Part shown: piece after piece, positions 1,045 through 56,440 of the stretch
Layout of the letters: every line of letters starts with the position of its first letter
Position numbering within the stretch: position 1 is the stretch's first letter
IMG/VR virus record: IMGVR_UViG_3300028833_000055
Coordinates: 174,446 to 238,445 of that record
Length of the DNA: 64,000 nucleotides
Reading direction: 5' to 3' (one strand)
Source: a virus
Taxonomy: Duplodnaviria > Heunggongvirae > Uroviricota > Caudoviricetes
Translations under genes and position numbers: made by a program
The notes under the pieces: generated by a model
Told to the model about the DNA's origin: nothing
Seen by the model: only the letters and a program-made list of their open reading frames with translations
Database searches by the model: none

Positions 1045-1060
1045 TAATGTCATTATCGCT

Positions 1061-1294
1061 ATGGAAAATCTCCATATGGATTACAATACGATAATGAACT
1101 TATGGATGTACGATTTTCAGAACATACTGGAAAGATACAGTAAGATGGTTGAAGAAAGGAAGGAAGAGGAGAAGAAACAGAACGAGGAGTACGAGAAAAA
1201 GTACAATCCGGACAAGTTCCTCAGACAAACCGGTGGAAATTCTTCAATACCGAAAATCCCAAATGCTCCGAATTTTTCAAAAGTCAAACTATAA
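1061..1294 (+). CDS. small Lys/Glu-rich hypothetical protein
   Basis: The track ORF 1004..1294 overlaps the upstream stop; the in-frame ATG at 1061 lies just after the upstream TGA (1042-1044); charged low-complexity product. Confidence 0.3.
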   Translation: MENLHMDYNTIMNLWMYDFQNILERYSKMVEERKEEEKKQNEEYEKKYNPDKFLRQTGGNSSIPKIPNAPNFSKVKL

Positions 1295-1311
1295 AAAAAG
1301 AGAAGTGTTAT

Positions 1312-5103: not shown

Positions 5104-5124
5104 ATTGTAGTTCTTTTATATTAT

Positions 5125-9809: not shown

Positions 9810-9812
9810 ATA

Positions 9813-18503: not shown

Positions 18504-20345
18504 TTATTGTACGATTTCATAACGGTATTTTTTCTCGTCCGTATTATATTTGAGTTCGAAAACGATAGGTATCATTTGTTTTCCATTATAGAAATATTCA
18601 TCGAAACTGTAGTTTTCACTGTCACTGTTTTCACTGGGTCTTTCAAATAGGAGTTCCATCCTTTCTTCAATGTTTTGTGAACATTCTGTAATTTCAACTC
18701 TCTTCGTTATATTTCTACTTGTTCTTGTTTTTATATCTTCCATACCCTTCATTTCCGAAAGAAGAGAATTTATGTAATATAAGCAGGTGAAATCCATATT
18801 TTCTTTTGATAGAAGTCTTATCAGCAAATAATATGGAAATTCATTTAAAACATAGTCTTTATCAAATTTGCTTTGCGGGTATAAAATTTCAAGTTCATTA
18901 TCCGAGTAGGATGAAAGATGCCCAACTATCTCTTTAAAAAAAGTTTCACTTTCACTTGTTGCATCTACAACATCTTTGGTTATTTGTATGGTGAATCTTT
19001 TGTGTGATAAATTGTTTTCGTTGGTATTTCTCAATCCTACATATGTGCCATATAGATTTGCCGAACCCATACTATCTATTTCTTTCTTTAAATATGAATA
19101 TAATGTTTTCCAGCTGAAGTCTTCATATAATTTATAAGTAGTAGGCAACGGTTCTATGTTTTTTTCGGAATACTTATATAATTTATACTGGTTGTTTTTT
19201 CCTAGTACATAACAGATAGGTTTCAACTGTTTTCCTTCCTTTACATCAAAGTATTCAGGAATTTCTTCCTTATCGAGGAATATATTTAACCTTTCGTACT
19301 TATATCCATGCTCTATGACATCAATCAAAGTACTTGGTATTCTGCTTGTTATTTTCTTTATTTCCGTTAGGTTCTTTTTATCAACAATGGTTGTTTCTTC
19401 ACCTTTCTTATTTTTATAATAGATTCCCTTCAATAGAAAGACAATTAAGATAAGTCCTATCAAGTCCATATTGTCTATTGATAACAATTTGACTATTTCA
19501 TAGTATAGGAATAAATCTTCAAGGTTTTCCTTTTCGTCATATTTAAACGGATAACAAGATTCTATAAGTTCTTTTGTTAACCAAGAATCGAATGTGTCAT
19601 AATCACTCCCTTCATACTCTTTTTCCCATATTTCTTCATATTTATCTTTGAGTTCCAATATGAAATTCAATAGTCTATTTTCATTTATTATTTCAACAAC
19701 AACGGGTGTCATTTTTATAATATGGAGTTTGTCATCTTTGACATGTTCGTTATTGTTTTTTAATATCACATATGTGTTGAATTTTTCTTGTTCGTTATTT
19801 TTTACGGATTTCTCCACTTGTTCCTTTAGTGTTTCATACAGTTTCTTCCAGTCATCACCTTCTATCACCATAGATACAGAAGTATTGTCCTTATCGACCG
19901 AAAGTATACCATTTTCATCTACGATAAGTCCGTCTCCTATCCTAACCACACCAATATCTTTCTTTGATGCGGTTTTGATGGAAATGATACCATCCTTATC
20001 CACATTTATGTTCTTCCCTACACTTACCAGTCCCCTTACGGAATTACCCGCCACAGGTACTGAAATCTTTCCGTCCTTGAGGTTTATGTTGTCTCCGACC
20101 TGTACCAGACCCATTCTGTTATAGTCTGTCTTAGGTATGACCACATTCAAGTCACCCGTACCGGTTACTTCTAGATAGTTGCCCGATATCTTTACTATTC
20201 CGGCCTTATTCTTGCTTGCATAGCTCAAATCCGTTATGTCCTCTATCTTATGTTCGTGTTTCTTCTTTGAAAATTTTTCGTTGAGAGCCTTCAATAGTGT
20301 CTGTAATCCACTTAATGACAAAAACTTGTTGCTGTTACTTTTCAT
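18504..20345 (-). CDS. tail fibre protein
   Basis: 613 aa; N-terminus has four tandem ~20-aa units G[IL]V.[IV][GS].N[IL].V.KDG.IS, typical of phage fibre beta-repeats; a distinct C-terminal domain follows. Confidence 0.55.
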   Translation of the reverse strand: MKSNSNKFLSLSGLQTLLKALNEKFSKKKHEHKIEDITDLSYASKNKAGIVKISGNYLEVTGTGDLNVVIPKTDYNRMGLVQVGDNINLKDGKISVPVAGNSVRGLVSVGKNINVDKDGIISIKTASKKDIGVVRIGDGLIVDENGILSVDKDNTSVSMVIEGDDWKKLYETLKEQVEKSVKNNEQEKFNTYVILKNNNEHVKDDKLHIIKMTPVVVEIINENRLLNFILELKDKYEEIWEKEYEGSDYDTFDSWLTKELIESCYPFKYDEKENLEDLFLYYEIVKLLSIDNMDLIGLILIVFLLKGIYYKNKKGEETTIVDKKNLTEIKKITSRIPSTLIDVIEHGYKYERLNIFLDKEEIPEYFDVKEGKQLKPICYVLGKNNQYKLYKYSEKNIEPLPTTYKLYEDFSWKTLYSYLKKEIDSMGSANLYGTYVGLRNTNENNLSHKRFTIQITKDVVDATSESETFFKEIVGHLSSYSDNELEILYPQSKFDKDYVLNEFPYYLLIRLLSKENMDFTCLYYINSLLSEMKGMEDIKTRTSRNITKRVEITECSQNIEERMELLFERPSENSDSENYSFDEYFYNGKQMIPIVFELKYNTDEKKYRYEIVQ

Positions 20346-20357
20346 ATCTTAATGTTT

Positions 20358-22523
20358 TTAAAGAATGGTTGTATTTATTAATCTTTCTAATTCACGAGTC
20401 GTTATGATATTGTTACTTGAAATTTCTGTTTCAATTTCCGATGTGGAACTGTTTGTTTCGGAAACACTTGAACAGTCGTATTCAAACGAAGGTGTTTCGG
20501 TCTGGTTCATCACTTCGTTGGTGCAGATGATTTCAATGGTCGGCTTCGTCGATATTTCATTACCCTCTATGGTTATGGACTGGTGCCAAGTGCTACCGAT
20601 ATGGCCGGTGTATATGGTGAGGTTGTGTCCGTTGAAATCTATGTAGTCCCTTATCAACAACTTCAGTGTCTGTCCTTTCTTCCATTTTACATCGTTGTCA
20701 TCAACATATATGTTCAGGTTGTTGGTGCAGGGGTCTCCCTTGACATAAAGTATCATAAGGTTTGCACCCTCTTCGAGTGTGGTGTAAAGGTTGAGTTTGG
20801 TGTTCACATCGGTGTGGTTGACGTTGAACTTGTTCTCTATGTTCACCGGACTTGTGAAATCGGGTTCGGGATACATCGCCATCATATTCCTTCTGCTGTC
20901 CACTGTGACAGCCTCCCTTCTAACGGTGATTATCATATTGTAGATGTCATTCAACTTGTATGTCGAGTTCTTCAAGTCGATAGTCACCTTTCCGTCTTCG
21001 TTTGTCACTTGTGTTCCGTATCCTTCGACAACCGATACCGGATTGTTCTGTTCGGCTATATGGTTGTCAACCTTCTGGTTTATGTCGGAGATGAGTCCGT
21101 TCAAGGCGAGCTGGTCGGTAAGTCCGGAACCGTTAAGTCTCACTTCAATGTCCCTTACCCTGTTCTCCACGGAAGACAAGGTGTCAACCCCGTACAGAAG
21201 CACTTCAAGTTCGCTTACACGGTTTTGTAGTCTTGCTATCTCCGTCTGTTGCCTGTTAAAAATATCAATGGTCTGTTGTAATTTTGTCATATCGTCTAAA
21301 TATTCTTGAAATGTCTCTAATAGTTCCGTGTTGAATTCGGTGAGATTTTCGAAATCGGAATCACCCGTTTCAATATATGTGGTACTTGTCGGATATGCGT
21401 CAACCTTTATGTCCACCTTCAAGGCGAATGAGTTTCCGTTCTGCAAGTTCGTGGTCTTATGTTTAGGGTAACGCTGTATGTATCCGGTTGGTATCTGTCC
21501 CCCCGTACTGGTGACTTCCTCCAAAAACAGGATACCGTAAAGGTTCGTCACCGTATTACCAGTACCGTTATCGGTGAAGTCGTAGTATATCAGTATGCAG
21601 TTGAACTCGAAGTCTTCGGCAGAGAGTTCGTTCATACTCATTATGTCATAATATCCTATTCTGTTGTTACGGTAGAATGTGTCCCTGAAATCTATGACAT
21701 ATCCGATGTCTCCACTGTATGTGTTTTCGGGATGTTCGGTGTCATATATGGCGTTTGTCGACAGTCCGTATTCGTTGGTGTCCTGTGTGGTGTCGGTGGA
21801 ACCTATTATTTTCTCCGAGTTCAAGGTGATGTTGCCGCCGTTGTAGTTGTTGTCGGTGATTGTACCGAACCTCACTTCGTAGCTTGCACCGACCGTACTC
21901 GGAATGTGCAGATATAATTCACTGTAAACATCACCGTCTATCTCCACCGAATTTATTATCTCAATGTTTCCGATGTATTTTACGGTTCTTGCATTGACAT
22001 AATCACTATGGTGGAGAGTGTCTCCACTGCTGTAACTCAGGTCGCCGCACTTTTCGTAGTACAGACTTGTTCCGGTTCCTGCATATTCAAATTTTATACC
22101 GTTCACCTTCTGCAACCAGTTGAAGAAAACCCTTTCCGAAGGAGACCTCAGCACACTGTTGTCAAAACCATCATCGTCACCTTCACCGTTCAATATGGCG
22201 GTTTCGTAGTTCATCACATAGTTCTGCAAGTGTTCCGCTAACATCAAGTTGAAATCACCGCCTACATCTTGTCTCGGATAATCGGGAAAACCATACTGGA
22301 TGGGGTCTGAATCTTCACTCGTGGCTTGTTTGAGATATATCAGACTGTCATCGTCATAAACCGTGGAGGTAGTCATATCCTTTAAATTGAGGCAGGCGAA
22401 CCGACTGAATCTGAAGGAATAACTATCATTTGTAAAAACCCTTGCTACATCTCTCTGTGCAGACGGGAATGTATAGAGAGTTCCACCGTTTACTCTTGGT
22501 TTTGTCAATAATGGTGTAACCAT
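20358..22523 (-). CDS. large virion structural protein
   Basis: 721-aa ORF with a central coiled-coil (LQQTIDIFNRQQTEIARLQNRVSELEVLL); first gene after the terminator at 22563-22592. Confidence 0.5.
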   Translation of the reverse strand: MVTPLLTKPRVNGGTLYTFPSAQRDVARVFTNDSYSFRFSRFACLNLKDMTTSTVYDDDSLIYLKQATSEDSDPIQYGFPDYPRQDVGGDFNLMLAEHLQNYVMNYETAILNGEGDDDGFDNSVLRSPSERVFFNWLQKVNGIKFEYAGTGTSLYYEKCGDLSYSSGDTLHHSDYVNARTVKYIGNIEIINSVEIDGDVYSELYLHIPSTVGASYEVRFGTITDNNYNGGNITLNSEKIIGSTDTTQDTNEYGLSTNAIYDTEHPENTYSGDIGYVIDFRDTFYRNNRIGYYDIMSMNELSAEDFEFNCILIYYDFTDNGTGNTVTNLYGILFLEEVTSTGGQIPTGYIQRYPKHKTTNLQNGNSFALKVDIKVDAYPTSTTYIETGDSDFENLTEFNTELLETFQEYLDDMTKLQQTIDIFNRQQTEIARLQNRVSELEVLLYGVDTLSSVENRVRDIEVRLNGSGLTDQLALNGLISDINQKVDNHIAEQNNPVSVVEGYGTQVTNEDGKVTIDLKNSTYKLNDIYNMIITVRREAVTVDSRRNMMAMYPEPDFTSPVNIENKFNVNHTDVNTKLNLYTTLEEGANLMILYVKGDPCTNNLNIYVDDNDVKWKKGQTLKLLIRDYIDFNGHNLTIYTGHIGSTWHQSITIEGNEISTKPTIEIICTNEVMNQTETPSFEYDCSSVSETNSSTSEIETEISSNNIITTRELERLINTTIL

Positions 22524-22562
22524 ATTTTCTTATAAATTAGATTATATTTTATTTATGCAACA

Positions 22563-22592
22563 ATAAAAAAGAGGGAGATTTCTCCCCCTCTT
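22563..22592 (-). terminator. rho-independent terminator
   Basis: GAGGGAGA-ttt-TCTCCCCCTC hairpin; a T-run follows on the minus strand, 3' of the dnaK-like gene. Confidence 0.65.
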
Positions 22593-22613
22593 CCATATTG
22601 TTTTCAAAAAGTT

Positions 22614-24488
22614 TTACTTTTTACCGAAAAAGTCACTGAAGTTCGCTCCAAACGGATTGTTCTGTGGGTTTTCTCCGTTCTGTTTCGAATATATCTCCGT
22701 CCCCGCTTCCATAAGGGATTTGTTAAGGATTTCCATACATGCCTTGCACGAACCGGCGTCTTTTTCCTCGAAGGCGTTTTTCAGAGCGTTGATACCGTTT
22801 TCAATCTCCGTTTTCTTTCCTTCGGAAATCTTGTCACCGTTTTCTTCAAGGAACTTCTCACTCTGGAAAATGGTGTTGTCCGCCATATTCAATGTCTGTA
22901 TCCTTTCGGATTCCTTTTTGTCTGCGTCTGCATTGGCTTCCGCCTCCTCTTTCATACGCTTGATTTCGTCATCGGACAGCCCGGAGTTGGATTCAATTCT
23001 GATGTCCTGTTTCTTTCCCGTACCCTTGTCTATTGCCGATACAGTGAGAATACCGTTTGCATCGATGTCGAAGGTAACTTCAATCTGTGGAACACCACGT
23101 CTTGCCGGAACGATACCGTCAAGGTGAAATCTTCCCAACGACTTGTTGTCCCTTGACATAGGTCTTTCACCCTGCAATACGACTATTTCAACTGAAGGCT
23201 GGTTGTCAACGGCGGTTGTAAATGTCTCGGTTTTCTTTGTCGGGATGGTTGTGTTTGCTTCAATGAGTTTTGTCATTATACCGCCTTCGGTCTCGATACC
23301 GAGTGAAAGAGGTGTGACATCGAGGAGAAGAATATCACCAATTGATTTATCACCAGATAACACGGCACCTTGAAGACATGCACCAAGAGAAACCGCCTCG
23401 TCCGGATTCACACTCTTATTTGGTACTTTTCCGAATGTTTTTTCAATCGCCTGTTGTATAGACGGTATTCTTGTTGAACCACCTACTAGTAAAATTTCAT
23501 CTATGTCTGAATTTGATATTTTTGATTTTCTCAAACACTCTTTACAAGTTTCTATTATCTTGTTTGTCAAACCAAATGACATTTCCTCAAATTTACTTCT
23601 TGTTAGTGTTTTTGTAAAATGAACAGGTACACCATCTATACTTGATATATAAGGAAGATTTATGTCTGTTGTAAGTGAAGATGATAATTCTATCTTTGCT
23701 TTTTCTGCGGCTTCTGTCATTCTTTGTATAGCCATAGTATCTTTGGAAATATCAAAATTAGAATTTTCTTTCTTAAATTCATCTATAATCCAATCAACAA
23801 TTAAATTATCATAATCCTTACCCCCAAGATGCAAGTCTCCATTTGTACCAAGAACCTCCATAACACCAGATGAGATATCGAGCATTGTGAAATCGGATGT
23901 TCCACAACCTATGTCAGCAACAAGAACCTTATACTCCTTTTCCGTATCAAGTTTATAACCGAAACTCAATGCCGCCGCCGTCGGTTCGTTTATAACCCTT
24001 AAAACATTTAGACCGGCAATTTCTCCGGCATCTTTAACCGCTTGTCTTGCACTATCACCATAGTATGCCGGGCATGTTATAACAGCATCTGAAACTTCTT
24101 CGCCAAGATAATCTTCTGCTGTTTTTTTCATCTTTTGAAGAATCATAGCGGATATTTCTTGTGGTGAATATGTTTTTCCGTTTACTTCCACATAAGCCAT
24201 ACCGTTTTTACCCTTTATAACATTATATGAAACTCGTTTTATCTCATCAGTAACATCGTCATATTTTTCACCCATAAAACGTTTTATGAACAAAATTGTT
24301 TCCTTTGGAAACATAACACTTTGACGAAGTGCCGGATTTCCTACTTTTATTTCGTTTTTTGCAAACGAAACGACACTTGGTGTTGTAGAACACCCTTCAT
24401 TGTTAAAAATAACTTTTGGTTTTCCTTGTTCCATTACAGATACACAAGAGAATCCTGTTCCTAAATCTATTCCAAGTATATTCTTCAT
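22614..24488 (-). CDS. dnaK: Hsp70/DnaK-family chaperone, full length
   Basis: N-terminal [15 protein letters not shown]...[17 protein letters not shown] matches the Hsp70 phosphate-1 motif; substrate-binding domain [30 protein letters not shown]; 624 aa covering NBD, SBD and lid. Confidence 0.9.
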
Positions 24489-24519
24489 ATTATTTTGTTT
24501 TTATCTCTTTTAAATATAA

Positions 24520-24560
24520 CAAAAAATCCACAAATATTTGTGGATTTTTTTTTTTTTATT
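24520..24560. terminator. bidirectional terminator
   Basis: ATCCACAAATATTTGTGGAT palindrome flanked by AAAAAA and T13. Confidence 0.7.
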
Positions 24561-24568
24561 ATTATTAT

Positions 24569-25060
24569 TTATTCTTTTTCTTCGTGTTTTTCAGTTTTTT
24601 CCATTTCTGGTTCAAACTCCTTTCTATATTCCTTTTCGTCTTCTTCCTTCATCCTCTTTCTTGCACGTTCTTCCCTTTCCTCCATACTTCTTTCCTTCGC
24701 CCTTTTCTTCTCCTCCTCTTCCTTTTTCAACATAAAGTCGGCTACTATATCATCGGTTACGGGTTCCTTCTTTAATATCTTTATGAACTTGAAGGAACGG
24801 AAACTTCTCCAAGCGAACTTGTCGAGGTCGTAATAGACCATCTGGTATGCTGGTTTCGGACCGCCCGTCCCCTTGATGGGTGGCAGGAAATCGGGATGAA
24901 GTGTTCCGTGTGCCTTTCTTATTGAACCGTCTCTTTTCTGAAACTTGAAAGTAAGAACATTTTCACGGAGAAGTTTTCTCATAATCTTCCTCTCCTTGAG
25001 TACAAGGCTTCCCGAAAGTTTCGCCTCATTGATGTATTCTATGTAATCCAATATTTTCAT
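24569..25060 (-). CDS. small protein, paralogue of 33007..33390, with a K/E/R-rich C-terminal tail
   Basis: Shares DG..R.A.GTL..D.LP...YYDL....(W/F)RSF....IKI with the 127-aa ORF at 33007..33390. Confidence 0.5.
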   Translation of the reverse strand: MKILDYIEYINEAKLSGSLVLKERKIMRKLLRENVLTFKFQKRDGSIRKAHGTLHPDFLPPIKGTGGPKPAYQMVYYDLDKFAWRSFRSFKFIKILKKEPVTDDIVADFMLKKEEEEKKRAKERSMEEREERARKRMKEEDEKEYRKEFEPEMEKTEKHEEKE

Positions 25061-25075
25061 CTTAAGTGTTTTTGT

Positions 25076-25783
25076 TTAATATCGTTTATCGGAATATCTT
25101 TTACACAACCTGAAACGAGTAGAACTTTCAAGTCCATATGAGTCGCTGGTTCTATAAAAATCAAAATGGTTGTCTTCGGGTTTAAAATGATAATCATCAA
25201 GACGTATATTCATACCCGTGTTTACTGTATAATCATTTCCATAATAAGATATTGAATGATAATTGTCAAGATGTTTAAGGGCGGCCAATATTTTTATAGG
25301 TACATCAAATATCTCACATTGTATTATTTTTTTCTTATCGTCATCAACAACACATTTAATATCCTTTTTTAGTTTTTTAAGAGCGTCATCCAACCAACCA
25401 ATTCGAATCAGTTGATATTTTTTAGACATTTCAAACATTTCAAGACACCTCTGAACATCTTCGTTTCCCAAAAAAGGTCTTGAACGCCAAAAGGCGTTAT
25501 TGTCATAACCATATTCAACCAACTCTTTGAGTGGACTATAATCTATATCGGAATCTTCATCGCTTTTTGCAAGAAAATCCATATTTGCAATCTCTATCTT
25601 TCGTTGTTCCTCATCTTTTCCGCCATAGGTTTTACCGGTGTCTATAAATTGAACATTATTTTCTTCAACCCATTTGTCGATTAAATTATCTATACCTCTG
25701 GATATTCGCTCTTTCGGTGTATAATCTTCTTCCCTTTTTATAGCATCGAAATATTCCTTTGTCAAATTAAGCAGTATTCCCAT
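25076..25783 (-). CDS. leader-family protein (MGILLNLTKEYF N-terminus)
   Basis: 235 aa; same N-terminal 12-mer as four other proteins; the rest is unrelated. Confidence 0.55.
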   Translation of the reverse strand: MGILLNLTKEYFDAIKREEDYTPKERISRGIDNLIDKWVEENNVQFIDTGKTYGGKDEEQRKIEIANMDFLAKSDEDSDIDYSPLKELVEYGYDNNAFWRSRPFLGNEDVQRCLEMFEMSKKYQLIRIGWLDDALKKLKKDIKCVVDDDKKKIIQCEIFDVPIKILAALKHLDNYHSISYYGNDYTVNTGMNIRLDDYHFKPEDNHFDFYRTSDSYGLESSTRFRLCKRYSDKRY

Positions 25784-25785
25784 TT

Positions 25786-26382
25786 TTATTTCTTTTTCTT
25801 GTCTTCTTCGACAGTGTTCCTTATCATTCTCATAAGGTCTTTCTGGTTACTCGACTTGTAACCGGTCGTAACTTCCGTAGCTGTGGTGTCATCGACATTC
25901 ATACTGTCCTTTTCGATGGAAATCTTCCTGTACTCCTCCTCTGCGTTGGCCACATAGTTGGTCTGTGTCTTAACGAGGTCTATGAATGTCCTTTGCAAGT
26001 TTCCGACGGCATCGAAAAGTTTAGGGTTGATGTCTCCCATCTCTATATTTTCCATCAGCAGAGATATTGCTCTTTCACTGACTTCCATCTGGTTCATAAT
26101 TTTTCCAAGTGTCATAGAATCCAGGTTTACCTTCGCCTGAACATATTCCGACTTGGATATGAAACCTTCCGACAGATAGAGTCTCAACAGGGATGTCATA
26201 ACCTTCTCGGCCTTCTCTTTTGCTTTCACAAGTGCCGGTGGTTCTCCTTCGGGAACTTTCACGGGTGTCCTGTTGAATGTCAGTGTAGTGGCATCCACGT
26301 CTTTGTTTATGTCTATGTCGTTTTCCAACAGAAGGTCAGATATACTGTCCTTGTAAGGGTTATTTTCAAGATTGTCTTTCAT
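25786..26382 (-). CDS. hypothetical protein
   Basis: 198-aa ORF; predicted helical. Confidence 0.5.
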   Translation of the reverse strand: MKDNLENNPYKDSISDLLLENDIDINKDVDATTLTFNRTPVKVPEGEPPALVKAKEKAEKVMTSLLRLYLSEGFISKSEYVQAKVNLDSMTLGKIMNQMEVSERAISLLMENIEMGDINPKLFDAVGNLQRTFIDLVKTQTNYVANAEEEYRKISIEKDSMNVDDTTATEVTTGYKSSNQKDLMRMIRNTVEEDKKKK

Positions 26383-26388
26383 ATTGTT

Positions 26389-27621
26389 TTAATTTATAAA
26401 AAGATAATATATTCTTACTTCTTCATCTTCACCGACGGTTATTCTTACTTTATATTCTTTATTGTCATAACTCGACAAGTATTGTCCGTATCCATCTTCA
26501 TCCACGCAAAGTTCGGCGAGTTCTTTAAGGTCATAGTACGAAGAGTCCAAATCACCAAAATTAGAAATAAATTCATCGACGACATCATTTATATCATCGA
26601 CCTTCTTTTCTACAAACTCATGTTTTTTGTCGCTTATGTTGAACTTTGGTGAACTATAATCGAGTTCAAAGTATTCATCATCATCTTCGACCACACCGTA
26701 ATCTATAAAGTATTTTACAAGGTCTTCATCGTTGAGTTCTTCGATTATTTTTTCCGCTTCTTCGAGTGAAAGTTCCTCATCGTTCTTCATCATTTCTTCG
26801 GCGAGTTCCTTCTTGACATCTTCTACATCGAACCTCGGTTCGGTATGGTTCGTATTAAAATAATTTGAATTATCATCTATGATGTCATATTCAATCATTT
26901 CGTCATATAACCTACTTTCGTGCTTGCCATTCTCGTTTTCTATGTCGTCACTATAATTTTCATAATCTACCTTGAAAAAATCCTTTAACGAATCCGTATC
27001 AATCCAAGAATCACCGACCACATTTATAAAACGCTTTACTTCCTCGCTGTCCATATTGTCGGAGAATGTGTCTTCTAACATATTCTCACTTTCTTCTATG
27101 GCGGCACTTCTCACCCAATCCTCCTCATATATTTTTATATCACGACTGGTATTGTCGGATTCCACCTTGTATTTCCATTTGTCCGATGAGTCTCCTTCTT
27201 CTATCTCCAATCCTTCATCGATAGGTAATGTGTCTTCCAAATCGGCCGTATATATAGCTTTCAGCGGTTCAAAGTCGACTTCCATCAAATCCACATCCGT
27301 TGTTATCCATTGTGTGATTGCGTCACCAAATTCACCAATGTTTTTTTTCACCTCCTTTAAAGTGGATTCTTTTATATAGTAATACAAATCTTGACCGCTA
27401 TCGTCCTTTGCGATTCCGAAGTATATAGGTTCGTCCATAAAGTTAAAATCCCTTCTTATGAGATGATTTTCATCATCGTCCATAACCATAGCATCTCTCA
27501 TAAAGGGATAGTCGCTATATTTTACTATATATTTCTTACCTTCAATTTTAATGGTGCGACCTTCCTCACCTCTGACATCTTCATCAAAATATTCTTTTGT
27601 AAGACTCAATAAAACACCCAT
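26389..27621 (-). CDS. leader-family protein, highly acidic (MGVLLSLTKEYF N-terminus)
   Basis: 410 aa, very Asp/Glu-rich; shared N-terminal leader. Confidence 0.55.
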   Translation of the reverse strand: MGVLLSLTKEYFDEDVRGEEGRTIKIEGKKYIVKYSDYPFMRDAMVMDDDENHLIRRDFNFMDEPIYFGIAKDDSGQDLYYYIKESTLKEVKKNIGEFGDAITQWITTDVDLMEVDFEPLKAIYTADLEDTLPIDEGLEIEEGDSSDKWKYKVESDNTSRDIKIYEEDWVRSAAIEESENMLEDTFSDNMDSEEVKRFINVVGDSWIDTDSLKDFFKVDYENYSDDIENENGKHESRLYDEMIEYDIIDDNSNYFNTNHTEPRFDVEDVKKELAEEMMKNDEELSLEEAEKIIEELNDEDLVKYFIDYGVVEDDDEYFELDYSSPKFNISDKKHEFVEKKVDDINDVVDEFISNFGDLDSSYYDLKELAELCVDEDGYGQYLSSYDNKEYKVRITVGEDEEVRIYYLFIN

Positions 27622-27660
27622 ATATTCTAATATCTTATTTGATATTTTATTTATGGTTCA

Positions 27661-28128
27661 TTATCTTTTCCCTTGATATATTCCTGTAATGTCTTTCCAT
27701 ACACCGTCTCCGGTGTTTTTGTACATCCTCTGGTTTGTGGAGGGTGAATTGAGGGGACCGAGTTCGGAAATGTATCTTCCCGTTTTTATGTAATCAAATT
27801 CTTGCAGTTCGTCTAAAGGCAGGATATCGTTTCCAGAAAACAAGGCTACTTTCATATCATTGTGATTTTTCTTTATGTACCTTGCATATTCCTTCATTTC
27901 AATCCACCCGTCAAAGTTTCCGTGTCCCATAAAGCAGATGCACGAAACACCTTTGTTCTTGTCTATCAGATAGTCTATGGATGTTTCGTTCAGTTCGTAT
28001 CCGATGTCTTCCCATAGGTGTTTTGAATGACAATCGGGACAATGGAACTTGCAGTTCGATATGTTGACACATAATGTTATCTCATCGGGTATTTCTTCAA
28101 ATACCACTTGTGTATCCGTGTATTTCAT
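27661..28128 (-). CDS. nrdG: anaerobic ribonucleotide reductase activating protein (radical-SAM, small phage-type)
   Basis: 155 aa; Cys cluster CVNISNCKFHCPDCHS near the N-terminus; directly downstream of nrdD. Confidence 0.7.
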   Translation of the reverse strand: MKYTDTQVVFEEIPDEITLCVNISNCKFHCPDCHSKHLWEDIGYELNETSIDYLIDKNKGVSCICFMGHGNFDGWIEMKEYARYIKKNHNDMKVALFSGNDILPLDELQEFDYIKTGRYISELGPLNSPSTNQRMYKNTGDGVWKDITGIYQGKR

Positions 28129-28141
28129 AATCTAAATATAA

Positions 28142-28170
28142 CAAAAAGGAGAGGTCTCCCTCTCCTTTTT
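28142..28170. terminator. hairpin terminator between nrdD and nrdG
   Basis: AGGAGAGG-tctc-CCTCTCCT with T6 on plus and an A/T-run on minus; the nrdD stop codon lies within the T-run. Confidence 0.6.
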
Positions 28171-30368
28171 TATTCAATGTCCTTGTTGTAAAATCTCATA
28201 CTCTCTTCAATCTGTCTCGGTTCGGCGAAGTTCTTTACACGCTTCAAATACCCGATTATTCTTGTGAGCTTATCGACATTCTTGCTTCCACAGTGGGGAC
28301 ATTCGTCCAAGTCGTGTTTTGAAATATACCCGCAGTCGTTGCAAGCGGTATTCCTTACATTGTATGTGAAGTAGTTGCAACCTACCGAAGCGGCGTACTT
28401 CAAGAGTTTTCTGTTCTGTTCCTTGTTCAGATGTTCTGCGAGGTTGATGTGGCAGGCGGAACCACCATCGAGATACTGTACATATTCCTTTCCGTGAAGT
28501 TTCATCTTGTTGAGAACACTCAATGAGTCGTCTTCCGGATTGAAGAAATATGACGAGTACATAATGTGCTTTTTACTTACGAAGTAACCGTCCTTCTTGT
28601 CCCAGTTGTAGTTCTTTACCGAAAGGTTTTCGCCAGGTACGAACTCCGTGTTGAACATACAGTCACGAGTCTTGTCCTTTTTGTTGCAGATGTTTATGGT
28701 TTCAAGTATTATGTTGACGAAATTTCTGTAGTCTTCATTGTCTGAACAATCTATTCCAAGAAATTCAGCGGCATCAGTCAAACCGTTTACACCGACTGTC
28801 AAGTACTGTTTTCTCAGGTTTATGAAACCGGCACGATAGATGTCGAGCATATTTGATTCGTGGAAATCCTTGATGATTGAATTGAAGGCGGTCTGGTACT
28901 TGTGTACGTTTTCCGTAACCTCCGTGATGTTGGATTTGATTTTCTCGATGACTCCTTCTTGAATTTCCTTGTCTTGTTTCGAAATGATGAATTTTTCTCC
29001 GAGTGTGAACTTGTAATTGTTTTCTTCGAAATATTCCATAACCGAATTCTGGATAATTCTGTTCAGGTTGATTGTCATAACCGACTTTGAACCGGTGGCG
29101 ACAGAAGCTGTTCCCATAGAGAACTGGTGTGTATTGTGGTTATGTTCTTCATCATTATCCTTCAAAGAATTTCTAAGTCTGCAACACGAACTCAAACTGT
29201 CCGGTGAATCGGAAAGGTATGTGAAGAAAGAGTGTCCTTCTGCATACATCTCTGCTGTGAAGTCTGCATATTCCTTGTCAACCAAGTCGTTACCATCTGT
29301 AAGACACGCCATTGTCTCAACCGGGAATGTAAGGGTGTATCTGGTTCTTTCATCGTTGAACCACTTCATAAATTTCTTCTGCAACCACGAAAGTGTCTCC
29401 CATTTCGGTGCAGTTCCATCCGGAAATCTGAAATCACCGAATACACCTTCAAAATATCCTTTGTCGAAATAACCCACATTCCAGAATACAGTTTGATAAC
29501 CACGGTTTCCAGCGGGCATATTCATAGAATGTACAACCTGCTGGAAATAGTTTTCAATGACCTTTTCAAGTGTCCTTCCTTTTCTGTTGAGTTCAACCTT
29601 CATATCGAGCTTGTCGAGATAGTCGTCACCATAGTCCTGTCTGATGAAATAGTCGAAGTACATAAGGAACTCGGGTGTCGCTACCGCTCCGGCGAACTGT
29701 GAGGATACGGAGTATACGAGATTGATGAACTCACCGCAGAACGACTTCAAGTCTGTGGGGGCTGTTGATGGACCACCGACACCGGTGAGTCCGTTTGTCA
29801 GGAACGGGTACATAGTTATGGCGACACAATACGGCATACCGGGAATCGCCGTCTCGTCGTGTTTGTACAACCTGTGTGTTTCGAGGTCGTATATGTATCT
29901 GTCTGCAAGTTTCTTGCTGTACATCATCTTTATACGGTCATACAGGAGGTATCTGTTCTGTTTGATGTTTTCCTCTTTGTATAACTCCTGACCCATAGTG
30001 ACCACATTCTTGTTGGAGACATTGGCGTTTGCATCGAACTTTGAACCCGTAGCGGCATTGCTCGCCTTTATGTAGTTCTTTATGTAGTCGGATTTCTTTT
30101 TCTTGAAGTTCATATCGCTGTTGATAGTGTCGTACTTGGATATGTAGGCTCTCGCCACCTTCTTGTTGACCGACATCAAGGCGTCTTCCACAAGTCTCCT
30201 TATTTCGGAGCTCGACATATTTTCATATACGAACAAACTGTCAACGACATTCTTTATCAAGTGTTCGTCTATCTCCTCGTTGATTGACTTGTATGCGTCA
30301 ACAATATCATTGAATACTTTATCAACATTGTATTCCTCAAGTGTACCGTCTGATTTTCTTATATTCAT
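28170..30368 (-). CDS. nrdD: anaerobic ribonucleoside-triphosphate reductase (class III)
   Basis: N-terminal ATP-cone (MNIRKSDGTLEEYNVDKVFNDI); C-terminal Zn-ribbon CNDCGY...CPHCGS and glycyl-radical motif TRIIGYLKRV. Confidence 0.9.
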   Translation of the reverse strand: MNIRKSDGTLEEYNVDKVFNDIVDAYKSINEEIDEHLIKNVVDSLFVYENMSSSEIRRLVEDALMSVNKKVARAYISKYDTINSDMNFKKKKSDYIKNYIKASNAATGSKFDANANVSNKNVVTMGQELYKEENIKQNRYLLYDRIKMMYSKKLADRYIYDLETHRLYKHDETAIPGMPYCVAITMYPFLTNGLTGVGGPSTAPTDLKSFCGEFINLVYSVSSQFAGAVATPEFLMYFDYFIRQDYGDDYLDKLDMKVELNRKGRTLEKVIENYFQQVVHSMNMPAGNRGYQTVFWNVGYFDKGYFEGVFGDFRFPDGTAPKWETLSWLQKKFMKWFNDERTRYTLTFPVETMACLTDGNDLVDKEYADFTAEMYAEGHSFFTYLSDSPDSLSSCCRLRNSLKDNDEEHNHNTHQFSMGTASVATGSKSVMTINLNRIIQNSVMEYFEENNYKFTLGEKFIISKQDKEIQEGVIEKIKSNITEVTENVHKYQTAFNSIIKDFHESNMLDIYRAGFINLRKQYLTVGVNGLTDAAEFLGIDCSDNEDYRNFVNIILETINICNKKDKTRDCMFNTEFVPGENLSVKNYNWDKKDGYFVSKKHIMYSSYFFNPEDDSLSVLNKMKLHGKEYVQYLDGGSACHINLAEHLNKEQNRKLLKYAASVGCNYFTYNVRNTACNDCGYISKHDLDECPHCGSKNVDKLTRIIGYLKRVKNFAEPRQIEESMRFYNKDIE

Positions 30369-33006: not shown

Positions 33007-33390
33007 TTACTCTTCTATGGTTACAATTTTAATGAAATTCTCTTTCTTGAATGAACGGAACTGGTTCTTTTCAAGGTCGTAGTAGTTGACGACATTTTCA
33101 TTCTTCTTCACCGTTTTCTTCTTGTGTTTGAAAAGATACGACTTTCCGTCCTCGCTTTCACCGACAAGTTCGATTTTGTTCTCATTCATATACTCTTCCA
33201 TACTTCCGTATTTCTCGGAGACGAGTGTGTCAACGGCGGTTTTTTCGAGTTCAAATTCGTCCGGTTCTCTTTTTGGGAGCAGGTCTTCTCTGAGTGTTCC
33301 CTTCGCTGTTCTTGTTGTTCCGTCAGTTTTCGTATATTCGAAAATGACTACATTGTTCTTCAATGTTTCTTTAAGTTCTTCTGCATTCAT
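33007..33390 (-). CDS. small protein, paralogue of 24569..25060
   Basis: FEYTKTDGTTRTAKGTLREDLLP...NYYDLEKNQFRSFKKENFIKIV parallels FKFQKRDGSIRKAHGTLHPDFLP...VYYDLDKFAWRSFRSFKFIKI. Confidence 0.5.
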   Translation of the reverse strand: MNAEELKETLKNNVVIFEYTKTDGTTRTAKGTLREDLLPKREPDEFELEKTAVDTLVSEKYGSMEEYMNENKIELVGESEDGKSYLFKHKKKTVKKNENVVNYYDLEKNQFRSFKKENFIKIVTIEE

Positions 33391-34780: not shown

Positions 34781-34817
34781 ATATTCATAAATAATTTAAA
34801 CCAATAAAATATTTTTT

Positions 34818-43354: not shown

Positions 43355-43420
43355 ACTATAAAGATAACAAAAAATCAAGAAAACCATAAATATAATGAAA
43401 AATAAAATGAAACGTTAGAG

Positions 43421-56397: not shown

Positions 56398-56440
56398 ATT
56401 GTATTTTGTATTTTAAGTTTCTATTATTAAGTTATTTATG

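What the first reader, a model, noticed from the sequence alone, without database searches (positions are those of the whole stretch)
22614..24488. Phage-encoded full-length Hsp70/DnaK
A complete DnaK (NBD + SBD + lid, 624 aa) is encoded between the structural and leader-protein genes, with its own terminator. No DnaJ or GrpE is visible in the window. Phage-encoded Hsp70s are rare. Together with the GroES-like gene and the ClpP-like protease it suggests the phage brings its own folding machinery, perhaps for the very large repeat proteins.
Basis: partly seen in the sequence, partly recalled or inferred. Interest (0 to 1): 0.6.

Follow-up and report, generated by a model that had tools for sequence, protein, structure and literature searches.

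The report
Huge-phage DnaK chaperone, lineage-specific variant
The window really does encode a complete, selectively maintained DnaK/Hsp70 chaperone; it is an old, fixed gene of a whole clade of huge gut/rumen phages that has drifted into a distinctive, cysteine-rich form with no partner genes found nearby, although phage DnaKs as such are neither rare nor unreported.

Summary
Observation confirmed. ORF 22614-24488 (-) encodes a 624-aa full-length Hsp70 that passes two NCBIfam DnaK equivalog cut-offs and is followed by a conserved terminator hairpin. None of the 60 window genes, nor any six-frame ORF, is a DnaJ or GrpE. It is phage DNA, not host DNA: relatives down to 63-70% identity sit in the same order (NrdD/G...WYL_2-DnaK-ORF721...gp32) on viral contigs of 200-412 kb, including three retrieved independently through the neighbouring gene. 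The clade is monophyletic (100% bootstrap), near but outside Bacteroidota (57-62% identity), and under strong purifying selection (dN/dS 0.01-0.12). Catalytic, allosteric and J-domain-contact residues are invariant. Clade-fixed changes: G12/F13, C142/Y146 and C197 around the ATP site; altered GrpE-related elements (R34, K55, K294); Glu at arch position 404 in the window's subgroup; two CxxC pairs; loss of the acidic DVDFEEVK tail. Other huge phages carry canonical DnaKs with DnaJ and often GrpE nearby, so "rare" is wrong, and moraphage DnaKs are published. dnaK shares an upstream motif with nrdG and the GroES-like gene, not the T4-late-like CATAAATA motif. Verdict: a real, functional, lineage-specific variant of a known chaperone; clients, partners and biochemistry are inferred only.

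The parts
22614..24488 (-). dnaK coding sequence, 624 aa plus stop codon
   Evidence: ORF; Pfam HSP70 full length; NCBIfam DnaK equivalogs passed; dN/dS 0.014-0.12 against clade members
23340..24488 (-). Nucleotide-binding domain (about aa 1-383). D8, T11, K70 (window K69), E171, D194, T199 and D201 are intact. Clade-fixed changes are G12, F13, C139 (E. coli V142), Y143 (F146), C195 (G197), C318 (A323), S34 (R34), L54 (K55) and V289 (K294)
   Evidence: Alignment to E. coli DnaK structures; 120 clade sequences against 80 Bacteroidota sequences; AF2 secondary structure
22974..23339 (-). Interdomain linker (ILLLDVTPL) and beta-sandwich substrate-binding domain (about aa 384-505). The pocket residues and A429 are kept. 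Arch position 404 is Glu
   Evidence: the review states that DnaKs have Met or Leu at 404
22680..22973 (-). Helical lid (about aa 506-603) carrying the clade-specific C581-x-x-C584 pair
22614..22679 (-). Disordered C-terminal tail (aa 604-624, ...[14 protein letters not shown]). It lacks the DVDFEEVK motif found in nearly all of the 80 Bacteroidota DnaKs
22567..22594 (-). Intrinsic-terminator-like hairpin (12 bp stem, 5 G-C pairs, T-run) 20 nt after the dnaK stop codon. It is conserved in relatives and separates dnaK from ORF721
24511..24524 (-). Upstream motif TTTTGTTATATTTA, a candidate promoter element 23 nt before the ATG. Exact copies also precede nrdG (28133-28146) and ORF327 (17424-17437), and near-copies precede the GroES-like gene
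   Evidence: 11 matches at up to 2 mismatches against 3.0 expected, reached by 0 of 100 shuffles; conserved upstream of dnaK in L084, L087, L088 and L105-L110
24521..24550 (.). Perfect palindromic hairpin between the WYL_2 gene and dnaK. It looks like a bidirectional terminator, and its T-run overlaps the dnaK upstream motif
20358..22523 (-). ORF721, the conserved downstream neighbour. It is a clade-specific protein (alpha/beta domain, coiled coil, beta-sandwich) with its own CATAAATA late-type motif at 22550-22557. Context only; no functional link to dnaK has been shown
   Evidence: 714 relatives with no Pfam domain; AF2 pLDDT 73.6; no fold match; motif; pairing with HSP70 kept at 33-36% identity
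43085..43387 (-). GroES/Cpn10-like co-chaperonin gene (100 aa) with near-copies of the dnaK-type upstream motif at 43359-43372 and 43387-43400. Context only
   Evidence: Cpn10 25.4 bits against cut-off 21.1; phrog_3188 E=7.8e-10; motif

Best explanation
Shown. The gene encodes a catalytically competent, DnaK-type Hsp70 that is a vertically inherited, positionally fixed gene of a diverse clade of huge (200-412 kb) phages from animal gut and rumen metagenomes. It derives from the Bacteroidota DnaK lineage but was acquired long ago, not from a present-day host.

Inferred mechanism. It runs the normal Hsp70 cycle: ATP binding opens the substrate-binding domain, and J-protein- and client-triggered hydrolysis closes the lid. 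Every side chain known to sense or hydrolyse ATP and to relay allostery is kept. So are all J-domain contact residues, so it most probably recruits a J-domain protein, either the host's DnaJ or one encoded elsewhere in the unseen genome.

More speculative. Three GrpE-related elements are altered: R34 in the GrpE-binding loop, the K55 partner of the K55-E267 cleft salt bridge, and K294 in the GrpE signature motif. The acidic tail is lost, and no grpE or dnaJ lies nearby. Together these suggest an Hsp70 tuned towards faster intrinsic nucleotide exchange and a narrower set of phage clients, as in specialised Hsp70s.

Timing (inferred). It is transcribed as its own unit from the motif class shared with nrdG and the GroES-like gene. 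That points to early or middle expression, ahead of the genes preceded by the late-type CATAAATA motif.

The confidence given applies to the shown part (a functional DnaK-type Hsp70 that is an old, vertically inherited gene of this phage clade). I put use of a J-protein at about 0.6, relaxed GrpE dependence at about 0.3, and early/middle expression at about 0.5.
For: Identity and integrity. All of D8, T11, K70, E171, D194, T199, D201, P143, D148, R151, R167, N170, T173, L390-D393 and D477 are 98-100% conserved in 120 clade sequences; Q378 and P419 are kept. The substituted positions T12, N13 and G197 contact ATP only through backbone amides, while the side-chain gamma-phosphate sensors are T11 and K70 (PMC12406271).

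Selection: dN/dS is 0.014 (dS 0.10) against L001 and 0.08-0.12 against L084, L085 and L088. DnaK is the best-conserved gene of its neighbourhood across the clade.

Viral and vertical: synteny is conserved in L001-003, L084-088, L101-110 and L181-183. It is also conserved in 3 of 3 loci retrieved through the neighbouring ORF721 family at 33-36% identity. The clade is monophyletic at 100% bootstrap, Bacteroidota are monophyletic without it at 80%, and the two together are separated from Firmicutes and Proteobacteria at 84%. Within-clade identity (minimum 63%, mean 70%) is lower than within the sampled Bacteroidota (minimum 67%, mean 76%).

GrpE-related changes: read against PMC8215388. That review states that the K55-E267 and R56-E264 bridges are absent from HscA, which has 700-fold faster ADP release, places the GrpE signature at residues 290-295, and notes that NEF-independent tuning suits Hsp70s with few clients.

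Contrast set: about 20 other IMG/VR huge contigs, plus Lak-A2 and Lak-B4, have DnaJ and mostly GrpE within 10 kb of a canonical DnaK. None of the 18 loci of the window's clade compared in that table does.

Transcription unit and motif class.
Against: No biochemical or expression data exist for any member; every functional step is inferred from sequence. Only 64 kb of a genome that is probably over 300 kb was seen, and relatives were read to only +/-10 kb, so a DnaJ or GrpE elsewhere in these genomes is not excluded. The IMG/VR DnaJ scan listed only the best 80 of at least 366 hits. R56-E264 is retained, K55 is still K or R in about 46% of the clade, and the GrpE signature loop is not deleted, so loss of GrpE dependence is far from proven. 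The role of R34 in GrpE binding rests on my recollection of the loop 28-33 literature. The tree is neighbour-joining with a simple distance correction, so placement outside Bacteroidota could partly reflect long-branch attraction of a fast-evolving viral gene. Assignment to early/middle expression rests on analogy (CATAAATA against the T4 late TATAAATA, from memory) and on co-membership with nrdG. G197C puts a side chain into a glycine-rich phosphate loop and might impair ATPase activity.
Confidence: 0.8

Rival explanations
1. Recently captured host gene (an ordinary auxiliary or 'moron' gene): the phage picked up dnaK from its current Bacteroidales host, as proposed for moraphage DnaKs nested in Flavobacteriaceae.
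For: The nearest cellular relatives are all Bacteroidota, many of them rumen or gut Bacteroidales. There is published precedent in moraphages.
Against: Best identity to any of 185,579 GTDB species representatives is only 62%, while viral relatives reach 63-87%. The clade is monophyletic at 100%, and Bacteroidota are monophyletic without it at 80%. Synteny is fixed across members as divergent as 63%. There are 32 clade-fixed replacements at sites that are at least 95% conserved in Bacteroidota.
Confidence: 0.04
2. Host DNA in a prophage flank, or a chimeric assembly: the dnaK segment is bacterial sequence joined to phage sequence.
For: Several 'phage' database records with dnaK are evidently contaminated host DNA. 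P0058 is a chimeric bacterial-NBD plus window-type-SBD protein on a 3-kb contig.
Against: The same gene order appears on many independent assemblies from ENA, JGI, Logan and IMG/VR. GC content shows no discontinuity at the gene. The flanks are phage genes (gp32-like, NrdD/G, UvsW-like, UvsY-like, primase, baseplate-like) and none of the genes with an assignable family is a bacterial housekeeping gene. The phage-specific upstream motif and the terminator are conserved.
Confidence: 0.01
3. Pseudo-chaperone or decoy: an Hsp70 with crippled or altered ATPase activity that titrates host DnaJ, GrpE or client-like defence sensors, rather than folding proteins. Host DnaJ is needed for the anti-phage sensor bNACHT25, as cited.
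For: Both classical Hsp70 ATP-site signature patterns fail in 120 of 120 clade members against 80/80 and 64/80 matches in Bacteroidota (patterns recalled from PROSITE). C197 lies in the phosphate-2 loop. The client-interacting acidic tail is lost. J-contact residues are perfectly kept while GrpE-related ones are not. No partner genes lie nearby.
Against: Every side chain required for hydrolysis and allostery is invariant, and the substituted loop positions act through backbone amides. Purifying selection acts on the NBD, SBD and lid alike. The substrate pocket is intact. A simple J-protein sponge would not need all of this.
Confidence: 0.08
4. Replication or remodelling chaperone rather than virion-assembly chaperone: the protein is a working Hsp70 whose clients are replication or nucleotide-metabolism complexes, in the way lambda needs DnaK/DnaJ/GrpE to release DnaB (from my own knowledge). 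One candidate client set is the oxygen-sensitive NrdD/NrdG system.
For: The gene sits inside the replication and nucleotide-metabolism block (NrdD/G, guanylate kinase, gp32-like) in every relative. It shares its upstream motif with nrdG and the gp32-adjacent gene, not with the genes carrying the late motif.
Against: Gene position and promoter class are weak predictors of clients. The GroES-like gene, classically a capsid-folding helper in T4 (from my own knowledge), shares the same motif class. An early-made chaperone can still serve late proteins.
Confidence: 0.15

Closest known systems
Bacterial DnaK of Bacteroidota (the canonical DnaK/DnaJ/GrpE system)
   Same: Same full architecture and length. 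Identity is 57-62%. Catalytic, allosteric, linker, pocket and J-contact residues are identical. It shares Bacteroidota traits: C320 (E. coli numbering), N481, A/S414, and the deletion of E. coli residues 208-211.
   Different: There are 32 clade-fixed replacements at sites that are at least 95% conserved in Bacteroidota, including G12, F13, C142, Y146, C197, C323 and C584. R34 is lost. K55 is L or R in 116 of 120 clade members. K294 is V. Position 404 is Glu in the window's subgroup. The DVDFEEVK tail is absent. Mean cysteine count is 9.2 against 2.7. It is encoded by a phage, and no dnaJ or grpE was found nearby.
Moraphage DnaK/DnaJ (Arch Virol 2025, PMC12619734)
   Same: A DnaK encoded by large phages predicted to infect Bacteroidota. 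The function there is equally uncharacterised.
   Different: Moraphage DnaKs are present in only 8 of 25 genomes, nest within Flavobacteriaceae (recent transfer) and co-occur with DnaJ. Here the gene is a syntenic gene of the clade (present in every locus examined), branches outside sampled Bacteroidota, and has no DnaJ within reach.
DnaK with adjacent DnaJ (and often GrpE) in other huge phages: Lak megaphages, the LR7565xx genomes of Al-Shayeb et al., and IMG/VR contigs of 130-385 kb
   Same: Huge phages that carry a full-length DnaK. Lak-A2 shares G12 and C197, and LR756504 shares G12/F13 and has S197. Both group with the window clade at 82% bootstrap.
   Different: These keep the canonical T12-N13, R34, V142/F146 and, mostly, G197, and they keep the acidic ...F/YEEVK tail. 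About 20 contigs have class-A DnaJ plus GrpE within 10 kb, and Lak has DnaJ about 200 bp downstream. Identity to the window is only 50-58%.
Specialised bacterial Hsp70s HscA and HscC
   Same: A working analogy only. These are Hsp70s with altered cleft salt bridges and GrpE elements, a non-canonical arch residue, no GrpE requirement and few clients (PMC8215388).
   Different: It is not a member: the HscA models score below cut-off (540.8 against 620; 536.6 against 708.55). The GrpE signature loop is not deleted, R56-E264 is retained, and the best matches are DnaK equivalogs.
Phage strategies that borrow host chaperones: T4 gp31 (a GroES analogue) and the RB43 J-domain protein Rki
   Same: Phage-encoded components that plug into host chaperone machines. 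The window also has a GroES-like gene. Jumbo-phage Hsp10, DnaJ and MoxR-vWA are discussed in PMC7824862, and Rki is cited.
   Different: In those cases the phage supplies the co-chaperone and uses the host ATPase. Here, for Hsp70, the phage supplies the ATPase itself and apparently not the co-chaperones.

Membership tests
DnaK-type Hsp70 (PF00012; NCBIfam DnaK equivalogs) | Full-length match to the family profile above the curated cut-off | tested here: met
   PF00012 760 bits, profile positions 1-598 of 599. NF001413 854 against 648; TIGR02350 829.1 against 822.55, a marginal pass. Two other clade-specific DnaK equivalogs (NF009947, NF009946) are not reached.
DnaK-type Hsp70 | Catalytic and gamma-phosphate-sensing side chains (D8, T11, K70, E171, D194, T199, D201) | tested here: met
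   All present in the window and in 119-120 of 120 clade sequences. Roles as given in PMC12406271.
DnaK-type Hsp70 | Classical Hsp70 signature patterns 1 and 2 over the two phosphate-binding loops (PROSITE PS00297 and PS00329, patterns recalled from memory) | tested here: not met
   Pattern 1 matches 0 of 120 clade members against 80 of 80 Bacteroidota. Pattern 2 matches 0 of 120 against 64 of 80. Pattern 3 matches the window. The failures are due to G12, A190 and C195 (window numbering). These are diagnostic patterns, not mechanistic requirements: the affected positions bind phosphate through the backbone.
DnaK-type Hsp70 | Hydrophobic interdomain linker (VLLLD) and allosteric relay (P143, D148, R151, K155) | tested here: met
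   ILLLD in the window. L391, L392 and D393 are present in 120 of 120. P143, D148 and R151 are present in 120 of 120.
DnaK-type Hsp70 | J-domain contact residues (R167, N170, T173, Q378, L391, P419, D477) | tested here: met
   All conserved. The contacts are as listed in PMC8215388. Actual binding to any J-protein was not tested.
DnaK-type Hsp70 (as opposed to HscA/HscC-type) | Two salt bridges closing the nucleotide cleft (K55-E267, R56-E264) and GrpE-related elements (loop 28-34, signature 290-295) | tested here: inconclusive
   R56 and E264 are kept. K55 is L in the window and in 65 of 120, R in 51 and K in 4. R34 becomes S, A or T in the clade (119 of 120; 99% R in Bacteroidota). The loop 290-295 is present but K294 is V in 116 of 120. 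The kinetic consequence cannot be tested here.
DnaK-type Hsp70 | Substrate arch M/L404 plus A429 and the hydrophobic pocket | tested here: inconclusive
   A429, F426, V436, I438 and Q433 are kept. Position 404 is Glu in the window and in 48 of 120, and M or L in the rest. The review states that DnaKs have Met or Leu there.
DnaK-type Hsp70 | Conserved acidic C-terminal tail motif (D-V/A-D/E-F/Y-E-E-V) | tested here: not met
   Absent from all clade members inspected. Present in nearly all of the 80 Bacteroidota DnaKs and in nearly all other viral DnaKs.
DnaK/DnaJ/GrpE chaperone system | Cognate DnaJ and GrpE encoded by the same genome | tested here: inconclusive
   None in the 64-kb window or within +/-10 kb in the 18 clade loci compared. 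None of the top 80 IMG/VR DnaJ hits falls on a clade contig. The complete genome was not available.
HscA (Fe-S assembly Hsp70) | Score above the HscA model cut-offs | tested here: not met
   NF003520 540.8 against 620; TIGR01991 536.6 against 708.55.
Jug (jumbo gut) phages, Sci Adv 2026 (PMC12880540) | Genome of 360-402 kb, 27-30% GC, about 89-91% coding, standard code, nrdD commonly split by inteins or homing endonucleases, NrdG as a core gene | tested here: inconclusive
   Standard code and NrdG are present. Relatives have intein- or HEG-split nrdD and contigs up to 377-412 kb. But the window has 38.6% GC, about 97% coding density and an intact nrdD. Clade GC spans 26-39%. No Jug sequence was available for direct comparison. 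The paper mentions ruminant-gut relatives and never mentions DnaK.

The most novel reading that the evidence does not exclude
The clade's DnaK is a distinct, phage-specific Hsp70 subfamily that works without a nucleotide-exchange factor. Its ADP release is intrinsically faster because the K55 bridge, R34 and K294 are altered. It is dedicated to a small set of phage clients, and it is regulated through its clade-fixed cysteines: C139 and C195 flanking the ATP site, and the two helix-borne CxxC pairs at 315/318 and 581/584. These could act as a redox or metal switch suited to anaerobic gut hosts. Exchange of whole NBD modules at the linker, as seen in L266, would then be a way for these phages to re-tune the motor while keeping the client-binding half.
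Probability: 0.2. Interest if true: 0.7.

Novelty: new variant of a known kind. Interest (0 to 1): 0.45.

Why it matters
Hsp70 is among the best-understood molecular machines, and yet no bacteriophage-encoded Hsp70 has been characterised functionally as far as the literature searched here shows. This clade offers a natural experiment. An Hsp70 has been kept under strong selection for a long time inside viral genomes. Its motor and J-protein interface are untouched, while its GrpE-related elements, substrate arch, tail and cysteine content have been reshaped. The contrast with other huge phages, which carry canonical DnaK together with DnaJ and GrpE, gives two alternative viral solutions that can be compared directly at the bench. 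The phages concerned are abundant in animal guts and rumen, and possibly related to the prevalent human Jug phages, whose description does not mention the gene. Understanding why they need their own Hsp70 bears on how huge phages build large virions or run replication in Bacteroidota hosts. If instead the protein behaves like host DnaK, the finding reduces to one more auxiliary gene of huge phages.

Tried and rejected
1. Near-identical DNA search of window 18000-30000 against 50,697 phage records found no match, so the genome is not in that collection.

2. Supplementary tables of the Jug paper, which might list DnaK or DnaJ, are not held. The Al-Shayeb 2020 paper, the HPGC preprint and the Jug main text contain no mention of DnaK, Hsp70 or chaperones.

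3. ORF721, the conserved neighbour, was examined as a possible partner or client. It has no Pfam, PHROG or PDB sequence match. The AF2 model is of moderate quality, and Foldseek against the PDB gave nothing (best E=0.12, TM below 0.1). Its function stays unknown.

4. The 1291-aa gene next to the ClpP-like gene has no PDB sequence match, so the 'portal then protease' reading could not be tested.

5. Rfam search of the 575-nt insertion that splits Lak-B4 dnaK found no family at E<=0.01, so the intron idea is unconfirmed.

6. I scanned IMG/VR with a DnaJ alignment, hoping to hit a contig of the window's clade. None appeared among the best 80 of at least 366 hits. This is uninformative as a negative.

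7. P0058 (bacterial-type NBD plus window-type SBD on a 3-kb contig, with a garbled C-terminus) was judged a probable assembly chimera and excluded from the analyses.

8. A CIRCE-type heat-shock operator or an RNA thermometer upstream of dnaK was considered. None is visible in the 80-nt leader, and no Rfam family occurs in the window.

9. Stop-codon recoding as in Lak phages was considered and rejected: 60 genes, about 97% coding and all three stop codons in use under code 11.

10. The cap-limited search of 1.84 billion representatives was not used, because it would add no context or names.
Full report
**1. The observation**

- It matches Pfam HSP70 end to end (profile positions 1-598 of 599, E=1.4e-228).
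- It passes two NCBIfam DnaK equivalog cut-offs: NF001413 at 854 against 648, and TIGR02350 at 829.1 against 822.55. It falls below the HscA cut-offs.
- PHROGs already holds a family for such proteins (phrog_22485, function 'unknown', E=4.5e-219).
- The best solved-structure matches are full-length E. coli DnaK chains (E about 1e-185).
- An AlphaFold2 model reproduces the canonical layout: actin-like NBD, linker, beta-sandwich SBD, helical lid and disordered tail (mean pLDDT 74.7 from a shallow alignment).
- A 12-bp-stem hairpin with a T-run lies 20 nt after the stop codon (22594-22567). A second, perfectly palindromic hairpin lies upstream (24521-24550). The gene therefore looks like a self-contained transcription unit.

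**2. Phage or host?**

The window has 60 densely packed genes under the standard code (about 97% coding; TAA 37, TAG 6, TGA 5 among the larger genes). It has no tRNA and no Rfam family. The genes with an assignable function are typical of large T4-like or huge phages:
- gp32-like SSB, UvsW-like helicase, UvsY-like protein, primase;
- NrdD/NrdG, guanylate kinase, PhoH;
- baseplate-hub-like protein, GroES-like protein, ClpP-like protease;
- a DUF2201 metallopeptidase-like gene followed by an AAA_5 ATPase gene.

The rest are ORFans.

A 99.7% identical DnaK lies on three other assemblies, two of which are IMG/VR viral contigs. Relatives at 85, 78, 77, 72, 70 and 69% identity lie on contigs up to 377 kb in the same order: NrdD/NrdG ... 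WYL_2 - DnaK - a 640-760-aa ORFan ... gp32. IMG/VR holds clade members on contigs up to 411,604 bp.

All of those were retrieved through DnaK itself. As an unbiased test I therefore retrieved loci through the neighbouring ORF721 family at only 33-36% identity. All three carried an HSP70 gene immediately upstream in the same synteny. Host DNA, a prophage flank and misassembly are thereby excluded as explanations.

**3. Origin**

Among one genome for each of 185,579 bacterial and archaeal species, the best matches are all Bacteroidota, many of them rumen or gut Bacteroidales, but at only 58-62% identity. The scan is pattern-seeded and therefore biased, so I built a tree that also included Firmicutes and Proteobacteria DnaKs recovered from host-contaminated 'phage' records. 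It is a neighbour-joining tree of 59 sequences and 617 columns with 100 bootstraps.
- The window's clade is monophyletic (100%).
- Bacteroidota are monophyletic without any viral sequence (80%).
- Viral plus Bacteroidota sequences separate from the outgroups (84%).
- The window clade groups with Lak-A2 and LR756504 (82%).
- Sequence diversity inside the phage clade (minimum 63%, mean 70% identity) exceeds that of the sampled phylum Bacteroidota (minimum 67%, mean 76%).

The gene is therefore an old resident of this viral lineage with Bacteroidota affinity. That differs from the moraphage DnaKs, which nest inside Flavobacteriaceae (PMC12619734). The method is simple and long-branch attraction cannot be excluded. 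The deep placement, and any single origin shared with Lak phages, are provisional.

**4. Is it functional?**

Selection says yes.
- Against the closest relative, 9.4% of synonymous sites differ but only two amino acids change (dN/dS 0.014).
- Against relatives at 70-85% identity, dN/dS is 0.08-0.12.
- Across the clade DnaK is the best-conserved gene of its neighbourhood: 69-72% where neighbours fall to 33-66% or become undetectable.

I compared 120 clade sequences with 80 Bacteroidota sequences, using E. coli numbering. Conserved in 98-100% of the clade are:
- the catalytic and sensing residues D8, T11, K70, E171, D194, T199 and D201;
- the allosteric relay P143, D148 and R151;
- the linker L390-D393;
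- the substrate pocket F426, A429, Q433, V436 and I438;
- the J-domain contacts R167, N170, T173, Q378, L391, P419 and D477.

**5. What is different**

Thirty-two positions that are at least 95% conserved in Bacteroidota are replaced clade-wide.

(a) Around the ATP site: T12G and N13F in the phosphate-1 loop, G197C in the phosphate-2 loop, V142C and F146Y next to P143, and T60M with N61F/Y.
- As a result, both classical Hsp70 signature patterns fail in 0 of 120 clade members, against 80/80 and 64/80 matches in Bacteroidota (patterns recalled from PROSITE).
- According to PMC12406271, T12, N13, G197, G198 and T199 touch the phosphates only through backbone amides. The side chains that sense the gamma-phosphate are T11 and K70. 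The changes are therefore compatible with activity, though they may tune it.

(b) GrpE-related elements.
- R34 is replaced by S, A or T in the clade (119 of 120; 99% R in Bacteroidota).
- K55, the partner in the K55-E267 cleft salt bridge, is L in the window and in 65 of 120, R in 51 and K in 4.
- K294, in the 'GrpE signature' 290-295, is V in 116 of 120.
- R56-E264 is retained, and the signature loop is not deleted.
- The review PMC8215388 reports that HscA lacks both bridges and releases ADP 700-fold faster. It also notes that exchange-factor-independent tuning would suit Hsp70s with few clients.

(c) The substrate arch residue 404 is Glu in the window and in 48 of 120. DnaKs have Met or Leu there.

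(d) The acidic C-terminal DVDFEEVK motif is present in nearly all of the 80 Bacteroidota DnaKs and in nearly all other viral DnaKs. In this clade it is replaced by an NPF...F/M-type tail. The tail is reported to aid client handling.

(e) Cysteines: mean 9.2 per protein against 2.7 in Bacteroidota and 1 in E. coli. The clade-fixed cysteines are C139, C195, C318 and C581; C584 is present in 89%. C318 forms a CxxC with the pre-existing C315, and C581/C584 form a second CxxC in the lid. I have no explanation for this. The tools gave no coordinates to measure distances.

**6. Co-chaperones**

No gene of the window, and no six-frame ORF, is a J-domain protein or a GrpE. None lies within +/-10 kb in the 18 loci of the clade compared.

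By contrast, about 20 other IMG/VR contigs of 130-385 kb carry a complete class-A DnaJ and GrpE within 10 kb of a canonical DnaK (T12-N13, R34, V142/F146, G197, FEEVK tail). These sit among typical huge-phage genes such as T4-type RNA ligase, dCMP deaminase, RNR small subunit and a NUMOD3 endonuclease. Lak-A2 and Lak-B4 have DnaJ about 200 bp downstream of DnaK.

Two viral solutions therefore exist: the whole triad, or DnaK alone in a modified form. Whether the window's clade encodes partners elsewhere in its roughly 300-400 kb genome is unknown. A DnaJ scan of IMG/VR put none of its best 80 hits on clade contigs, but at least 366 hits exist.

**7. Expression class**

Two upstream motifs are over-represented in the window.
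- CATAAATA occurs 14 times against 4.4 expected, a count reached by none of 100 shuffles. It resembles the T4 late promoter TATAAATA (my own knowledge). It precedes ORF721, the 1291-aa gene, the DUF2201/AAA_5 pair and others.
- TTTTGTTATATTTA occurs 11 times at up to 2 mismatches against 3.0 expected, again reached by none of 100 shuffles. It precedes dnaK, nrdG, the gene next to gp32 and a small gene upstream of guanylate kinase. Near-copies precede the GroES-like gene.

The dnaK copy is conserved in distant clade members. It is displaced only where a GIY-YIG homing-endonuclease gene has inserted immediately upstream. The terminator followed by CATAAATA before ORF721 is conserved throughout.

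I infer that dnaK is expressed with the nucleotide-metabolism genes, before the late genes. This is an inference by association, not a measurement.

**8. Literature and novelty**
- Phage DnaK is not new as a category. Moraphages were described in 2025.
- 'DnaK chaperones' are named among the abundant ATPase proteins found in a mobilome survey that included huge phages (PMC8297831).
- The 2021 comparative survey of jumbo phages lists Hsp10, Hsp20, Hsp60, DnaJ and MoxR-vWA but no phage Hsp70 (PMC7824862).
- The Jug phage paper does not mention DnaK. Its genome size, standard code, split nrdD genes, Bacteroides/Phocaeicola hosts and ruminant relatives resemble this clade. The window's 38.6% GC and about 97% coding density do not fit Jug proper, at 27-30% GC and about 89-91% coding, so I do not file the window as a Jug phage.

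The observations that I did not find in the papers consulted are these:
- the gene is fixed in position across a deep clade;
- it has a coherent signature set;
- that signature goes with the absence of neighbouring co-chaperones.

**9. Verdict**

Its claim of rarity is wrong, and its 'folding machinery for giant repeat proteins' idea is untested.

The best-supported explanation is a working DnaK-type Hsp70, inherited vertically in a huge-phage clade, that engages a J-protein through an unchanged interface. More speculatively, it has been re-tuned in nucleotide exchange, substrate arch, tail and cysteine content for a phage-specific task.

Novelty: a new variant of a known kind. Interest: moderate (0.45).

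Noticed in passing
L266 6056-7927 (ENA ERZ28613383, STEW19-1 scaffold_2883): A clade dnaK in perfect synteny is a domain mosaic. Its SBD and lid are 85-93% identical to clade members. Its NBD is only 46-63% identical to anything held (motifs DLGSTLSE, ITVPAFFN, DYGGSTLDFS; T11S, D148N, N170A). The breakpoint falls at the conserved linker. This suggests exchange of whole NBD modules by recombination.
   Followed up: partly
L095 5595-6169 (Prevotella phage Lak-B4, MK250023): The Lak-B dnaK is split by a 575-nt insertion exactly inside the phosphate-2 loop (DLGC | GTEDV), with a frame change. This looks like an intron or mobile insertion at a conserved catalytic site. No Rfam family matched.
   Followed up: partly
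window 34818-37163 (+) and 37201-39495 (+): A 781-aa protein with a DUF2201 putative metallopeptidase domain is followed by a 764-aa AAA_5 (MoxR/dynein-type) ATPase. Each is preceded by the late-type CATAAATA motif. The pair resembles the peptidase-vWA plus MoxR chaperone pair described for some jumbo phages. It may be a further assembly-chaperone system in this phage.
   Followed up: no
window 25076-25783 (-), 26389-27621 (-), 49037-49789 (+): Three otherwise unrelated proteins begin with the same 13-residue leader MG[IV]LL[NS]LTKEYF, and the leader also occurs in relatives L084 and L102. It could be a shared targeting or processing signal.
   Followed up: partly
window-wide; for example 22550-22557, 56433-56440, 34786-34793 (CATAAATA) and 17424-17437, 24511-24524, 28133-28146 (TTTTGTTATATTTA): Two statistically enriched upstream motif classes partition the genes. 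One is T4-late-like and sits before large or uncharacterised genes. The other sits before dnaK, nrdG and other nucleotide-metabolism genes and is usually fused to the T-run of an upstream terminator hairpin.
   Followed up: partly
L001 9163-9999, L085 9163-9996, L181-L183 about 9058-9999; L001 1-2788, L084 2430-5801, L086 about 800-5850: In several sister genomes a GIY-YIG (SegE-like) homing-endonuclease gene is inserted directly upstream of dnaK, displacing its upstream motif. In several, nrdD carries an intein or is split by HNH or GIY-YIG genes. The window has neither.
   Followed up: partly
P0058 (JGI, 3,024-bp contig): A 620-aa Hsp70 with a bacterial-type NBD (DLGTTNS, FGGGTFD), a short segment like P0014, and then an SBD and lid identical to the window's. 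It is most likely a metagenome assembly chimera across conserved dnaK segments.
   Followed up: partly
window against L001 (ENA ERZ27257207 k141_2503702): Mosaic relatedness between near-identical phages: DnaK 99.7%, WYL_2 98% and ORF180 99%, but gp32 81%, ORF721 83% and ORF194 79%. This indicates recent recombination among co-circulating relatives.
   Followed up: no
window 31223-32764 (-) and 51763-52512 (-): A 513-aa SPFH/Band-7 plus flotillin-domain protein is encoded by the phage. The ClpP-like protein 19 kb away has a weak NfeD N-terminal-domain hit (24.9 bits against cut-off 40). NfeD proteases are usual partners of SPFH proteins (my own knowledge). The ClpP-like protein matches phage 'ATP-dependent protease' (1.7e-50) better than head-maturation proteases (about 1e-28).
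   Followed up: no
window 24569-25060 (-) and 33007-33390 (-): The window has two WYL_2 (Sm-like SH3 barrel) genes. The one immediately upstream of dnaK keeps that position throughout the clade.
   Followed up: no
L092 (LR756504, 636 kb) and L094 (Lak-A2): Parts of the clade's ATP-site signature recur in other huge phages. LR756504 has G12-F13 and S197, and Lak-A2 has G12 and C197. Both keep the acidic tail, and Lak keeps an adjacent DnaJ. This reflects either shared ancestry (82% bootstrap) or convergence of the two phosphate loops.
   Followed up: partly
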